A stretch of 62,861 nucleotides of DNA, counting the filler, from Collodictyon triciliatum (lineage: Eukaryota): the NCBI GenBank assembly GCA_043381765.1. It is 6 parts of 6 records of this genome, joined end to end, with 100 filler letters (N's around TTAATTAATTAA, not from the genome) between each part and the next. Parts side by side here need not be neighbours in the genome. Positions count along the whole stretch, not along the records: positions 15,552 to 28,223 come from JBHJMP010002124.1; positions 28,324 to 41,003 come from JBHJMP010002127.1; positions 41,104 to 53,771 come from JBHJMP010002128.1; 3 more parts are not named here. One strand, given 5' to 3'. The notes under the pieces are model-generated. The model saw nothing but the letters and a program-made list of their open reading frames with translations, did not search any database and was not told where the DNA came from. How positions within the stretch are numbered: the first letter of the stretch is position 1; the number at the start of each line of letters is the position of its first letter. The position numbers were made by a program, and so were the translations under genes. This document shows, piece by piece, positions 16,118 to 43,092 of this stretch.

Positions 16118-19100
16118 TCATTTGTGTTTATCGTGTGCGGCGTATTCCTCAGACAGGGCTCGGAAACTCGGGCGAAGATTCTCGTCGTTGTTCCAACATC
16201 TTTTCATCAAGGAGAGACGGGATGTGCTCATCTGTGGGTATATTTCCGGTCTCAATCCGCTTATGACATCCACATTCAGAAGAAGAGGGTTTCTTCCTTG
16301 ATATGGCGTTTGTCTAGTCTCCACTTCCCAAACAATAATTCCAAAGCTATAAACATCGGCCTTTTCGGTATATCTTTGCCCCTTGATAATCTTGTATAAA
16401 ATAAACATGTTTTCATTAGTCATATCTCAAAAAAAAATGAGAAGAGGTGAATTGAAGAAGTGACGAAGAGACTAAGAATTATACAAAACTTTTATTTATA
16501 CAGATACAGATACAGATACAGATACAGATACAGATACAGATACAGATACAGATACAGATACAGATACAGATACAGATACAGATACAGATACAGATACAGA
16601 TACAGATGACATAAAACCTCTGGAGCCTGGTATGCCATCGTTCCACATTTTGTCATGGTACGGTTGTTAATTTTTAACCGAGCAAAACCAAAGTCACAAA
16701 TTTTGGCATCGAAGCTGGAGTCAACCTATATAGCATTCCATAATAATGAACTTTGATTCATATCCAACGCAATAAGCTCAATAGTCTTGGTCAACTTTCT
16801 ATTGCACACCACATACCAGAATATTTGCCGATTTCAAATCTCGGTGCAGAATCATGGGTGTCTTTGAGTGAAGGTAATCCATTCCCTTGATTATTCCACC
16901 GATGATTCTATTTCTTTTAAATGACATTATTAACGAATAAAGAAAATGCAGTGAAAAAAAAAAAGGGAGACTGGCCATTTCATATATTTTTCTATAAAAA
17001 AAGTAGGGAGAGGTCTATACATGGTTTCCTCTGGTATATGGATCGAAGAATTTCTTAAGAGAGATTGAAGATTGCCCGGCTCAACAAACTCCATAACAAT
17101 GATAAGATTTGGCGGCTCTTTAATGGCTCCGATAAACTCGACGATGTTGGGGTGCTTAAGTTTGCTATTATAAATGTAATGAACAAATTCAACAAGCCCT
17201 GTAAGTTTCTTTTTCGTTCTCCATTACACCCATTTATATAAAAACCACCTGAAAACAGTCACTTCCATCAGGAAAAGGATGAGGGCTTCGTTCGCCGTCT
17301 GATTATGCCCCGCCAGGCATTTCTTCACTGCTACTTTCCGCCCCTGCTCGATAATTGTTTTAAGAGAAAAAAACTTTCCAACTGCGATGCTGATTGATGT
17401 AAAAATTACCCTAAATTCCCCAATAAACACAGAGCCAAATGAACCAGAGCCTATGCACGTGTTTTCCATAGATATCTCAGAAAAATCAATCTCCCAGTCC
17501 TTCTTTTTTCTGGCTATCTCCTCCAAGTCATCTCCTGGCTTCTTATATTTATTTTTGATTGCAATTTCTGCTCCCATCGCGGCACCAAGGGACGATAAAT
17601 TAGAACTTATATGTTCATCCTTTGATGAATCAGTTTGGTTGGGTATTGAATGGAAGGTACTGCTTTGAGCATGGTGGTTCATAGTCTGTTGGAAAAAAAA
17701 GTAAGTATTGTCCATTGTCAAACTTTCAGCCTGCTGGGAATGATATATGGTATCTATGTATGAACCTTCAACATAAATGATGGCGCTTGCATTTCTTTCT
17801 GGGCAAATAAATCTCTTCTTCTTGACAGTCTTTTAGGAACTACCTTTTTTTTGTAATCAAGTTAATTTGATTTATTTAATATATGCTATCTTGATTTCAG
17901 TTTATTGATTTCATTATTATATTAATCTCTAGCCCCATTTACACCCTCTGTCATATGTCCAATTCACGAAAACATCTAGACACCAGTTAATTGATGATAT
18001 ATCTTGAATTAATCAGCCTAGCACCTGATGCAGAGATGACTTGAGTATTTCAACTTCATACTTGGAGGAAAACGCAGGGGAGATTATATTTTCGACTTCA
18101 AGAGTTTCTAGGTCATCACCAATACCCTAAGAAAATAGGATAATATCAATCCTCTGAATAAATTCAAACCTCTTCTTGATTAACTCACAAATATTCAAGT
18201 GTATATATGATCAATTCAAGATTTTTGAAGAAATTTTACATTGTGCACGACATCAGTTATTAGGATTTGACCTCCTTGCGAAGCTTGGCTGACTTTGATA
18301 ACTCTTGCGAGATTCTGTAATCATTTTATAGAAATATTTCAAATTTTGATTTATTTATTCAAGCCATCATTTCTCATTCATCATTTTTATCTTCAAACCC
18401 CTATTTGCACTATTAAATGGAGATGAAAAAAGTTCAATTTTTTATTAGGTCTCATGGAACTCAGGGGTCGATTACTTGATAAATGTATTGAGTGGAGAAA
18501 AACCTTGCCCACAAACTTCCATTTTCTATTTTCCTCGTCAAAGACCTTGTTGCACATGCCAAAGTCGACACCCTGCAGAATTTAATATCTTGCTTAGTGA
18601 ATTTTCTATCATTTTATGTTCAATTAGGCACTTACCATTTGAATGCGTAAACCGCATAAATCTCCATCATATACAGCACTTGCTTCTTCACATGCCAAAA
18701 TATCTTTTGGCCAGTCAGCATCAAATAAGTTTACTTGGACATCGCAACAAAACCTGGCATATGGAAAAATAAATGAGAGTTGAGATGTTTTTTTATTCGT
18801 CCTTTCAATTTTGTGCAGGATGGTGGAGATGAGAGTTGAGATATATATACGAGTAGAGTTTGGCATATTTTACTTGATCGCTTGGATTGATTCTTGGAAC
18901 AAAATAACGATGTTCTCTCCATCGTTTTGATTGATGTAACCTTTGTGCTTTTTACAAACCTAAAAATTGATTTACTACGTGAATGAATTATAGCAAAATT
19001 TATCATAAATAGACAAAGCAATACGTCTTTGATTATTTTGTTTTGTAGCATGACAGATTCTCCCATCGAAGCGGGCGATGATTCCCATAATCTTTCTGAA

Positions 19101-41300: not shown

Positions 41301-43092
41301 ATGACAACAACAAGTTTCTTCGGCTGTCTTTTGGTGGCCTTTGGGCCACTGGCTGCCCTCTTCATCTATGCCGTGCTCCCAAAGAATAAAAGAATCGTAT
41401 TGATGGTCGCAAGGTTCCCTCCTTTGAACCCGCCATTTTCATTCCCTATTTTTTTTTTAAAAAAAGGAAAAAGTATTCAGCTTGAAATACTGTAAAGATG
41501 TAAGCCACTTTCTCCAAAGTCTCTTTCATTCAGCCGGAGTTTAATTGCTTGGTTAAATATGTCTTTTCTTATCTCCTTTTTGCATTTGAAATCCTTGTCT
41601 ATTTCTCTGAATTCCTTCGTTTATGCAACAACGAAGACTGTTCTTAAAATCCCACGCGTTGGTGGTCTTTCCACACAAATCATAATTAATCGCTGGAATA
41701 ACATTAGATATATCTATGTAGTTGCTTCTTTTGTTTAATTGGATTGATGTTTTCTGCCTTATGGTGGTATATCGTATCTCCACTACAACAAGCATATCCT
41801 TTTGCAATCGTGTTTTCAGTCTTTTTTCAGGAGATTGCCCGCTTTTCGTATATACGAGTTTATAGGTACTATCTATCACCATGTTTATCTTTAACATATC
41901 TTCATGACATCACCATCCTGCACAAAATTGAAAGGAAGAATAAAAAAAAAACATATCTTCATGACATCATTTGAGAATAATCAGCTTGTATTCATAATGC
42001 GATTGAATACCATAATGATATCAATTCAAGATATCATCTCGGATGGAATACATGTTTTCATCACTTTATCGTCAATTAGATGGAGCGAAAAGGGCATTAT
42101 GAAAATATCTCGCTCTGTTTTCCTTGGACCACCGAACCTCGGCACAACCATGGGTATGACTTGTAAACAATAATTGAAGTTCAATAAAGAAAAAAAACCG
42201 AACAAATGAAAATTAATATCTTACAGGAAAATCGGTAGAATACAAAAGAAAAGAAAATAAAAGGAATGAGAAAAGAGAGAGAGAAAAAAGAGAAATTGAA
42301 TCAGGATTTCCCTCTCAAATCTTGGTCTGATTAATGATTTTTCTAGTGAAATACACATTCATAGGTGAATCTCATGAGATAATTACTTAATGGATTTTCT
42401 ACCTTTAAACTAGCATCTGGGATTGGATTTGCATTTATGTACACCCTTGTCATGTATGTGCCTGTTCTGGCTTCATCTTCAGGACCAGGAACGATTTTTT
42501 CTGATGCTTGTCCCAAACTGGACCATTTCTACCTTTCAGGTATTTTTCCTCTTTATTCTCTGGATTCGTATATAGACAAATATCATTTTAAGATGTGGAC
42601 ACACCAGAAAACCAAGTGAGATAATTTTTCTTTTAGCGAGAATAAGAGAAGATGTGAGTCATATTCCTCTCTATATTGACAAAACATAATCTTTTATATG
42701 TCAATCAAGCGCTGTACGTATTGGCCATGCAGTTGATCAACGTATTCATCACCGTCATTGCCTTTGACGGATATGCAAAGCCAATATCCCTACCCTTAAC
42801 ATTTGTTGTCATAGGAAGCCACTTGACAGCTTCTCTATTGGTGAGTGAATTGTAAATAGTTTTAAGAGAGCATTCTTTGACTCTTAATATAAAGACTTTG
42901 GTGACACGAACAAACTATATAATCAGATTTCAAACAACAAACCAATAGACCCTGCTAAACCTCGATGGCGGTAACTGTGCTGCCGGACTGAGTCTAGTCT
43001 ATGTCGTTGCAATATTTGATGGCGTAGTTGCTTATCAAACAGTCATCAGTCAATATGTACAAGCTTCTCTTGTGTCGAACCGCTCTGATTAA
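41301..43092 (+). CDS. APH1: Gamma-secretase subunit APH-1 (6 exons)
   Basis: MTTTSFFGCLLVAFGP..; FSVFFQEIARF; SGIGFAF..SSGPGT; IAFDG; HLTASLL|TLLN; stop TAA at 43090-43092. Confidence 0.93.
41893..41969 (+). mobile_element. Micro-retroinsertion family A: 37-bp insert with perfect 20-bp TSD (APH-1 intron 2)
   Basis: AACATATCTTCATGACATCA at 41893-41912 and 41950-41969 flanks CCATCCTGCACAAAATTGAAAGGAAGAATAAAAAAAA. Confidence 0.88.

What the first reader, a model, noticed from the sequence alone, without database searches (positions are those of the whole stretch)
18773..41969. Family A of ultra-short, TSD-flanked, A-tailed insertions shared between unrelated introns
Seen: the same ~37-42 bp sequence (CTCCA)CCATCCTGCACAAAATTGAAAGGA(C/A)GAATAAAAAAA lies in a kinase intron (18787-18828, minus) and an APH-1 intron on another contig (41913-41949, plus). 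The two copies differ by one substitution. Each is bracketed by its own perfect direct repeat (14 and 20 bp). The 3' ends coincide at AATAAA + A-run, the 5' ends differ, and the 41913 copy shows CA microhomology with its TSD. Established: variable-length TSD, A tail and 5' truncation are hallmarks of target-primed reverse transcription by non-LTR retroelements. Inference: these are recent, extremely truncated LINE 3' ends or a dedicated micro-SINE that repeat pipelines would usually miss at this size.
Basis: partly seen in the sequence, partly recalled or inferred. Interest (0 to 1): 0.75.

Follow-up and report, generated by a model that had tools for sequence, protein, structure and literature searches.

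The report
Tiny truncated retrotransposon tails in introns
Two copies of a roughly 40-base, A-tailed sequence, each flanked by its own duplicated target site, are real insertions, most likely the chopped-off tail ends of a LINE-type jumping gene, which is a known kind of event in an unusually short form.

Summary
The same 36 nt (one substitution) lies at 18787-18828 (-) and 41913-41949 (+). Each copy ends in AATAAA plus an A-run and is bracketed by a perfect 14- or 20-bp direct repeat.

All 4 non-tandem exact direct repeats of 14 bp or more, spaced 15-100 bp, bracket an A-tailed insert.

A second family, B, has five copies of 22-47 bp with TSDs of 12-18 bp. Its end matches the 3' end of metagenome contig L002, 26 of 26 nt for copy B2. 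L002 carries an ORF with a zf-RVT domain, and that ORF's full-length relatives are APE+RT proteins. Other copies of B occur in independent public runs.

No parent was found for family A. There was no whole genome to search, and three collection scans gave 0 hits. Its tail resembles the L002 tail only weakly.

Verdict: target-primed reverse transcription products, most likely extreme 5' truncations of an L1-like LINE. A micro-SINE or an mRNA 3' end is not excluded for family A. This is a new member of a known kind, of modest interest. The notable points are the shortness and the density, about one insert per 8.5 kb.

The parts
18829..18842 (-). A1 upstream target-site duplication, ATCTCAACTCTCAT (14 bp)
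   Evidence: exact repeat of 18773-18786
18787..18828 (-). A1 insert, 42 nt: CTCCA + shared core + GAATAAA + A-run + C
18773..18786 (-). A1 downstream target-site duplication (14 bp)
41893..41912 (+). A2 upstream target-site duplication, AACATATCTTCATGACATCA (20 bp). Its last CA matches the source sequence (microhomology).
41913..41949 (+). A2 insert, 37 nt, in an Aph-1 intron, in sense orientation, about 27 nt after the 5' splice site
41950..41969 (+). A2 downstream target-site duplication (20 bp)
22803..22846 (+). Candidate old family A copy, about 78% identical to A2, with no clear TSD. Uncertain.
   Evidence: 22-mer with 3 mismatches; 0.02 matches expected by chance
28749..28813 (+). B1: TSD 16 bp (perfect), insert 33 nt ending CAATCGAATAAATG + A-run
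36087..36144 (+). B2: TSD 18 bp (perfect), insert 22 nt TTTGAATCGAATAAAGG + A-run. 26 of 26 nt identical to the L002 3' end.
40211..40285 (-). B5: TSD ATTCAAYACCTGGT (13 of 14 match), insert 40225-40271 (47 nt). It lies in an interval that the RNA-like contigs skip.
40446..40497 (+). B3: TSD 11 of 12 match, insert 28 nt. Also present in contigs of runs X1, X2 and X4, so it is an older, shared insertion.
60299..60351 (-). B4: TSD 13 of 14 match, insert 25 nt CTTTGAATTGAACAAAGGG + A-run

Best explanation
A1 and A2 are two independent products of target-primed reverse transcription (TPRT) by an endonuclease-bearing, L1-like non-LTR retrotransposon.

Proposed steps, all inferred from established L1 biology:
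1. The element's endonuclease nicks the bottom strand at a T/A-type site.
2. The freed 3' end primes on the poly(A) of an RNA ending ...TTGAAAGGA(C/A)GAATAAA-A(n).
3. Reverse transcription aborts after only about 30-35 templated nucleotides.
4. The short cDNA end is joined to the other side of a break staggered by 14 or 20 bp, with 2-nt microhomology at A2.
5. Fill-in synthesis creates the target-site duplication.

The RNA copied is most likely the LINE's own transcript, so these would be extreme 5' truncations of a LINE family related to the one found for family B.

Shown: the anatomy of the inserts, their independence, and the LINE parent of the sister family.
Inferred: the enzyme, the order of steps, and that the family A source RNA is a LINE.
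For: - Anatomy: perfect TSDs of 14 and 20 bp, a common 3' end at AATAAA + A-run, 5' ends 5 nt apart, and CA microhomology at A2.
- Not chance: the core occurs twice, against 0 matches in 100 shuffles.
- Direct repeats: of 18 exact repeats of 12 bp or more spaced 15-100 bp, 13 lie in tandem arrays. Of the 5 others, the 4 that are 14 bp or longer all bracket A-tailed inserts. Markov resamples give a mean of 0.62.
- Sister family B: 5 copies, inserts 22-47 nt, TSDs 12-18 bp.
- B parent: the five best blastn hits of L002 in the window are these 5 copies, and all map to L002's last roughly 26-30 nt.
- L002 is LINE-like: just upstream of that end it has an ORF with zf-RVT at 32.4 bits, above the 27.5 cut-off.
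- ORF2 relatives: of 14 phmmer hits, the four of 1226-1275 aa match at their C-terminus. All 4 carry Exo_endo_phos + RVT_1.
- Other B copies: contigs of X1 and X4 (table 8) match only the B5 insert, 40228-40270/71. In X1 and X2 loose ends sit at those boundaries (table 7). So the TSD-defined borders are true element borders.
- Expression link: one X2 loose end matches 26 of 27 nt of the L002 3' UTR.
- A versus B: the A tail aligns weakly to the L002 tail (ACC.TC.CT.CAC..TTGAA..CGAATAAA). 60 of 2000 shuffles reach that score.
- TSD length: TSDs of about 15 bp are the L1 norm (PMC2831318, section 16 read).
Against: - No parent element, and no copy outside the window, was found for family A. There were 0 hits in metagenome, viral and prokaryote-genome contigs, and no whole genome is held.
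- Only two sure copies exist, so '5' truncation' rests on a 5-nt difference.
- The similarity of A to the L002 tail is weak (about p 0.03 by a composition-only shuffle).
- The target sites are only loosely L1-like. The TSD starts with A in 5 of 7 inserts, and A1, B3 and B5 have 1-3 extra bases between the A-run and the TSD.
- Three of the five B copies start within 1-2 nt of the same position. That fits a discrete short RNA as well as random truncation does.
- No empty-site allele was seen.
Confidence: 0.68

Rival explanations
1. Family A is a dedicated, very short non-autonomous retroposon (a 'micro-SINE' or a tail-only parasite). A discrete small polyadenylated RNA carries a LINE-like 3' tail and is mobilised in trans by the LINE machinery.
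For: - All seven inserts in the window are 22-47 nt, and no longer fragment of either family is present.
- Three of five B copies begin within 1-2 nt of each other.
- The B5 and B1 type differs from L002 upstream of the last roughly 20 nt while sharing the tail, as SINE/LINE pairs do.
- In X1, a contig with adaptor-like letters begins 4 nt upstream of a B5-like unit.
Against: - A1 and A2 have different 5' ends (42 and 37 nt).
- Inserts of 30-35 nt have no room for a Pol III promoter head, and Rfam found no match at gathering score anywhere in the window.
- The B2/B3/B4 type is continuous with a LINE 3' UTR in L002.
- Gene-dense short contigs would be depleted of long copies anyway.
Confidence: 0.14
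2. Family A copies are ultra-short processed pseudogenes. They would be the 3' end of an abundant host mRNA, copied in trans by the LINE machinery.
For: - AATAAA + A-run is also the end of an ordinary mRNA.
- Short TSD-flanked, A-tailed mRNA retrocopies are documented in human (PMC2831318, abstract and section 16 read).
- No LINE parent was found for family A.
Against: - Two, possibly three, hits from the same source in about 60 kb fit the cis-preference of LINE RNA better than one host mRNA does. This is an inference.
- AATAAA running directly into the tail is the layout recalled for L1 ends, and is the layout seen in L002.
- The tail motif is weakly shared with L002.
Confidence: 0.12
3. Artefact or non-retroposition origin: library adaptor, misassembly, or filler DNA captured at a repaired double-strand break.
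For: - The assembly is fragmented, with contigs ending in microsatellites.
- Family A was not seen in any independent data set.
Against: - An adaptor or misassembly does not produce perfect 14- and 20-bp duplications of two different unique targets with an A-run at one end only.
- The sister family with the same anatomy is present in independent runs and in a metagenome contig.
- Break filler would not give 12-20 bp staggered duplications in 7 of 7 cases.
Confidence: 0.04

Closest known systems
5'-truncated L1 (LINE-1 clade) insertions made by target-primed reverse transcription
   Same: - Variable TSDs around 15 bp.
- A-tail abutting the downstream TSD.
- AATAAA at the very end of the element.
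- Common 3' end with variable 5' end.
- Short microhomology at the 5' junction (PMC2912911, abstract read; PMC2831318, section 16 read).
- The relatives of the family B parent ORF have the APE + RT + zf-RVT layout.
   Different: - Inserts are only 22-47 nt in all 7 cases, whereas mammalian L1 truncations average hundreds of bases (recalled).
- A-runs are only 5-10 nt.
- The host is an unidentified AT-rich, microsatellite-rich eukaryote.
- The family A parent is not identified.
   Same: It is the source type of family B copies B2, B3 and B4. Its last roughly 35 nt share ACC.TC.CT.CAC..TTGAA..CGAATAAA with family A.
   Different: Family A is not a copy of it, since only a weak gapped similarity exists. 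L002 is a 1157-bp fragment without the RT or endonuclease part.
Short mRNA-derived processed pseudogenes (Terai et al. 2010, PMC2831318)
   Same: TSD-flanked, A-tailed retrocopies of RNA 3' ends that standard annotation misses. The TSD peak is at about 15 bp.
   Different: Those are 300 bp or less and each has its own parent mRNA. Here the inserts are about 40 nt and the same source recurs.
SINEs that carry the 3' tail of a partner LINE
   Same: Non-autonomous elements that share the LINE tail and are inserted with TSDs.
   Different: No tRNA, 5S or 7SL head and no room for one. There were 0 Rfam matches at gathering score.

Membership tests
TPRT product of an APE-type (L1-like) non-LTR retrotransposon | Target-site duplication of variable length (about 7-20 bp) flanking the insert | tested here: met
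   14 bp (A1) and 20 bp (A2), both perfect. Family B TSDs are 12-18 bp.
TPRT product of an APE-type (L1-like) non-LTR retrotransposon | A-rich tail at the 3' end, abutting the downstream TSD | tested here: met
   A7 followed by C (A1) and A8-10 (A2), right after AATAAA.
TPRT product of an APE-type (L1-like) non-LTR retrotransposon | Copies share the 3' end and differ at the 5' end (5' truncation), often with junction microhomology | tested here: met
   The 5' ends are 5 nt apart, with CA microhomology at A2. Only 2 copies, so this is a thin basis.
TPRT product of an APE-type (L1-like) non-LTR retrotransposon | Continuity with a parent element that encodes endonuclease and reverse transcriptase | tested here: inconclusive
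   - Family A: no parent found.
- Family B: L002 has a zf-RVT ORF plus a matching 3' end.
- Distant full-length relatives of that ORF: 4 of 4 have Exo_endo_phos + RVT_1.
TPRT product of an APE-type (L1-like) non-LTR retrotransposon | Nick-site preference of the TT/AAAA type | tested here: inconclusive
   A2 is TTT/AAC and A1 is TAT/ATC. Over all 7 inserts, the TSD starts with A in 5 and the preceding base is a pyrimidine in 6. Too few sites to decide.
TPRT product of an APE-type (L1-like) non-LTR retrotransposon | Many dispersed copies, and presence/absence polymorphism | not testable with these tools
   No genome is held.
SINE | Pol III-type head (tRNA, 5S or 7SL derived) with an internal promoter | tested here: not met
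   The inserts have 30-35 non-tail nucleotides. Rfam found 0 matches at gathering score in the whole window.
Processed pseudogene (mRNA retrocopy) | A host gene whose mRNA 3' end is the source | not testable with these tools
   No genome or transcriptome of the organism can be searched for a 37-mer. Within the window there is no other copy apart from the candidate at 22803.

The most novel reading that the evidence does not exclude
In this organism reverse transcription at the target is almost always abortive, with preferred stops only about 17-37 templated nucleotides from the poly(A). Alternatively, a discrete tail-only RNA is the real template. Either way, L1-like elements would act mainly as generators of 20-50 bp micro-insertions, about one per 8.5 kb here. 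These would be a distinct, annotation-invisible mutational class that lengthens the short introns and seeds sense-strand AATAAA signals inside genes. A1 would nearly double a candidate intron of about 64 nt.
Probability: 0.15. Interest if true: 0.6.

Novelty: new member of a known kind. Interest (0 to 1): 0.32.

Why it matters
It shows that 20-50 bp insertions flanked by TSDs, which are below the size that repeat pipelines report, can be frequent in gene-dense DNA of a poorly sampled eukaryote. There are 7 in about 59.8 kb of non-N sequence, three of them (A2, B5 and probably A1) inside short introns.

Such inserts are useful as clean presence/absence markers and as a read-out of LINE activity and processivity. 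They can also mislead motif hunters, who may take them for shared regulatory elements.

The L1-like family behind family B has few relatives in the protein libraries searched.

Tried and rejected
- **Whole-genome search:** not possible, because no genome is held.
- **Earlier notes of this scan:** nothing for this genome or sequence. A word search gave only analogues in other genomes.
- **Family A 24-mer in public collections:** 0 hits in metagenome contigs, viral contigs and genome contigs.
- **Family B core in metagenome contigs:** 4 loci. Only L002 has the A-tail and matching upstream sequence. L001, L003 and L004 have no A-tail after the match and look like chance matches; I saw only their flanks and did not translate them.
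- **The search for homologous proteins:** no hit for the polycystin-like ORF or for the L002 ORF.
- **The search for related loci with the L002 ORF:** none in viral contigs. One 27-residue match in a bacterial genome (L005) was taken as chance.
- **Sequencing runs:** only small shares were found (0.07-0.12) and no RNA holder is listed.
- **Empty sites:** no row of the joint or left-out tables lies at B1 or B2, and no listed piece bridges them, so no empty-site allele was seen. The piece table is cut, with 694 rows not shown.
- **Structure behind the shared 5' end of B2, B3 and B4:** the fold of the L002 3' UTR is not better than shuffles, z -0.34.
- **Looser scan for more families (TSD 9-11 bp):** the candidates at 24522 and 46168 are no more numerous than in the wrong-polarity control, so they were not counted.
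- **A1 gene model:** the candidate GT..AG interval does not close the frame in my simple reading.
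Full report
**What the window is.** It is six contigs joined by N44-TTAATTAATTAA-N44 linkers: 1-15451, 15552-28223, 28324-41003, 41104-53771, 53872-59042 and 59143-62861. Most contigs end in microsatellites or homopolymer runs. GC is about 0.26-0.49 per 2 kb, mostly near 0.33. It is an intron-bearing eukaryote, and no whole genome is held for it. 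Family A copy A1 lies on contig 2 and copy A2 on contig 4.

**The observation.** Read on the minus strand, A1 is the TSD ATCTCAACTCTCAT (18829-18842), then a 42-nt insert (18787-18828), then the same 14 bp again (18773-18786). The insert reads CTCCACCATCCTGCACAAAATTGAAAGGACGAATAAAAAAAC.

A2 is the TSD AACATATCTTCATGACATCA (41893-41912), then a 37-nt insert (41913-41949), then the same 20 bp again (41950-41969). The insert reads CCATCCTGCACAAAATTGAAAGGAAGAATAAAAAAAA.

The two inserts share 36 nt with one substitution (C/A). They end at the same place, GAATAAA running into the A-run, and begin 5 nt apart. The last two bases of the A2 TSD (CA) equal the two bases that precede CCATCC in A1, which is 2-nt microhomology.

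**Is it more than chance?**
- The 24-nt core occurs exactly twice at up to 3 mismatches, and 0 of 100 shuffles gave any match.
- I listed every exact direct repeat of 12 bp or more spaced 15-100 bp and found 18. Thirteen are inside tandem arrays (6291, 15552-15838, 52402).
- Of the five others, the four that are 14 bp or longer all bracket an insert that ends in AATAAA-type sequence plus an A-run. They are at 18773, 28749, 36087 and 41893.
- The fifth, 12 bp at 19650, has no A-tail.
- Fifty first-order Markov resamples gave a mean of 0.62 such repeats and a maximum of 3.

**Gene context.**
- Pfam finds Aph-1 in four ORF pieces: 41268-41492, 41708-41971, 42383-42616 and 42658-42852.
- The second piece matches the profile only up to about 41869, where the sequence reads TTTATAG|GTACTATC. 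So A2 sits about 27 nt inside an Aph-1 intron, in sense orientation.
- A1 lies 3' of a kinase-domain block (20478-19406, minus), in sense orientation.
- A1 sits between a candidate GT at 18873 and AG at 18754. That interval would be about 64 nt without the 56 bp added by the insertion. I could not close the reading frame across it and have no RNA evidence, so 'kinase intron' is plausible but not shown.

**A second family with the same anatomy.** TSD scans and pattern searches found five copies of family B:

| Copy | Coordinates | Strand | TSD | Insert |
|---|---|---|---|---|
| B1 | 28749-28813 | + | 16 bp, perfect | 33 nt |
| B2 | 36087-36144 | + | 18 bp, perfect | 22 nt |
| B3 | 40446-40497 | + | 11 of 12 match | 28 nt |
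| B4 | 60299-60351 | - | 13 of 14 match | 25 nt |
| B5 | 40211-40285 | - | 13 of 14 match | 47 nt |

- All end in ..AATCGAATAAA(G/T)G plus 5-8 A.
- The 21-mer of B2 has 4 matches at up to 3 mismatches, against 0.02 expected.
- That makes seven sure inserts in about 59.8 kb of non-N sequence, about one per 8.5 kb, all 22-47 nt long.
- A looser scan (TSD 9-11 bp) gave candidates no more numerous than its wrong-polarity control, so I did not count them.

**The parent of family B.** An exact scan of metagenome contigs with the B core returned four loci. Three (L001, L003, L004) show no A-tail after the match and look like chance matches. The fourth, L002 (1157 bp), reads ...CTTTGTATGGCATAACCTCGCTACACTTTGAATCGAATAAAGG-A10 followed by AT-rich flank.
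- Blastn of L002 against the window gives the five B copies as its five best hits. All map to L002's last roughly 26-30 nt: B2 26 of 26, B5 23 of 24, B3 27 of 30, B1 19 of 20 and B4 23 of 26.
- Upstream, L002 carries an open frame with the Pfam domain zf-RVT, at 32.4 bits against a cut-off of 27.5.
- An exhaustive phmmer search found 14 proteins at E of 0.001 or better. The four of 1226-1275 aa match at their C-terminus.
- All 4 of those have Exo_endo_phos and RVT_1. Three of the 4 have zf-RVT hits just below the cut-off.
- So family B is the 3' end of an L1-like (APE + RT + zf-RVT) element. The word-index search found no relative.

**Independent data.** Only contig 3 (28324-41003) could be laid.
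- Contigs of X1 and X4 (table 8) match only 40228-40270/71, which is exactly the B5 insert as delimited by its TSDs.
- In X1 and X2 loose ends sit at both boundaries. The flank consensus agreement is only 0.6-0.65, so these are several different loci.
- One X2 loose end, read in reverse complement, matches 26 of 27 nt of the L002 3' UTR just upstream of the core.
- B3 is present, with small differences, in contigs of X1, X2 and X4. It is therefore older and shared, which agrees with its imperfect TSD.
- X1 and X2 contigs contain both sides of 40165-40341 but not the interval itself. That interval holds B5 and has GT at 40330 and AG at 40165 on the minus strand by my reading, so B5 is probably intronic, in sense orientation.
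- X1 and X2 carry letters that I recall as a template-switch oligo, so they are probably cDNA. The tool labels them only as a guess.
- No contig bridged B1 or B2, so no empty site was seen.

**What this means for family A.** Its anatomy is the same as that of family B, and the B parent is a LINE. The last roughly 33 nt of A align to the L002 tail as ACC.TC.CT.CAC..TTGAA..CGAATAAA, but weakly: 60 of 2000 composition shuffles reach the score (alignment A2).

I could find neither a family A parent nor any copy outside the window. A candidate third, older copy lies at about 22803-22846 (about 32 of 41 positions match, no clear TSD).

My reading is that A1 and A2 are recent TPRT products, because their TSDs are perfect. 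They are most likely extreme 5' truncations of a LINE family related to L002 (0.68). A tail-only non-autonomous element (0.14), an mRNA 3' end copied in trans (0.12), or an artefact or other origin (0.04) remain possible.

**Points that do not fit neatly.**
- Three of the five B copies (B2, B3, B4) begin within 1-2 nt of the same position of L002.
- The predicted fold of the L002 3' UTR is no better than shuffles, z -0.34, so a structural stop is not supported.
- A1, B3 and B5 have 1-3 extra bases between the A-run and the TSD.
- Target sites are only loosely of the TT/AAAA type.
- That all seven inserts are under 50 nt may partly reflect selection in gene-dense DNA and an assembly that breaks at long repeats. 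This is an inference.

**Comparison with what is known.** The features match L1-type insertions: TSDs peaking near 15 bp, A-tails, 5' truncation and junction microhomology (PMC2831318, abstract and section 16 read; PMC2912911, abstract read). Short TSD-flanked retrocopies that annotation misses are documented in human, at 300 bp or less (PMC2831318). Inserts of 22-47 nt at this density, in an unsampled eukaryote, are an extreme of a known kind and not a new kind. I made two literature searches. They were not aimed at protists, so I make no claim that this is unpublished.

Noticed in passing
window 28749-28813, 36087-36144, 40211-40285, 40446-40497, 60299-60351: A second family of ultra-short TSD-flanked A-tailed inserts (family B, 5 copies). 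Its tail matches the 3' end of an L1-like element on metagenome contig L002.
   Followed up: yes
window 36105, 40458, 60337 (5' ends of B2, B3, B4): Three independent inserts start within 1-2 nt of the same position, about 17-19 nt before the A-run. No predicted RNA structure explains this.
   Followed up: partly
window 15452-15551, 28224-28323, 41004-41103, 53772-53871, 59043-59142: N44-TTAATTAATTAA-N44 linkers join six contigs. The contig ends are mostly microsatellites or homopolymers. Longer N runs (423-785 bp) lie at 6387, 12688, 39331 and 46643.
   Followed up: partly
window 7172-7726 (+): An open frame next to a 785-bp N run has a weak CCHC zinc-knuckle hit (16.2 bits, below cut-off). 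It may be the gag-like part of a retroelement.
   Followed up: no
window 36221-38743 (-): An 840-aa uninterrupted ORF with Pfam PKD_channel and Polycystin_dom domains. The word-index protein search found no relative at 1e-10.
   Followed up: partly
window 29593-30015 and 30862-31284: Very high summed contig depth in all four runs, up to about 2000. Many loose ends and joints lead to A-rich stretches near 28616-28643. This looks like low-complexity A/T runs attracting unrelated contigs.
   Followed up: no
window 8001-12000: GC is 0.44-0.49 against about 0.33 elsewhere. An ORF at 9297-9845 (-) contains a stretch that I recall as a triosephosphate-isomerase-like motif. Not tested.
   Followed up: no
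window 18787-18828, 41913-41949, 40225-40271: The three inserts that are probably intronic (A1, A2, B5) all lie in sense orientation to the host gene, so each places an AATAAA on the transcribed strand. The number is too small to judge.
   Followed up: no
window 37697-37911, 35634-35862, 36633-36901, 37252-37466: Short contigs 98-100% identical to this DNA occur in two freshwater-metagenome runs of one study (X3, X4). The organism or a close relative is therefore present there at low depth.
   Followed up: partly
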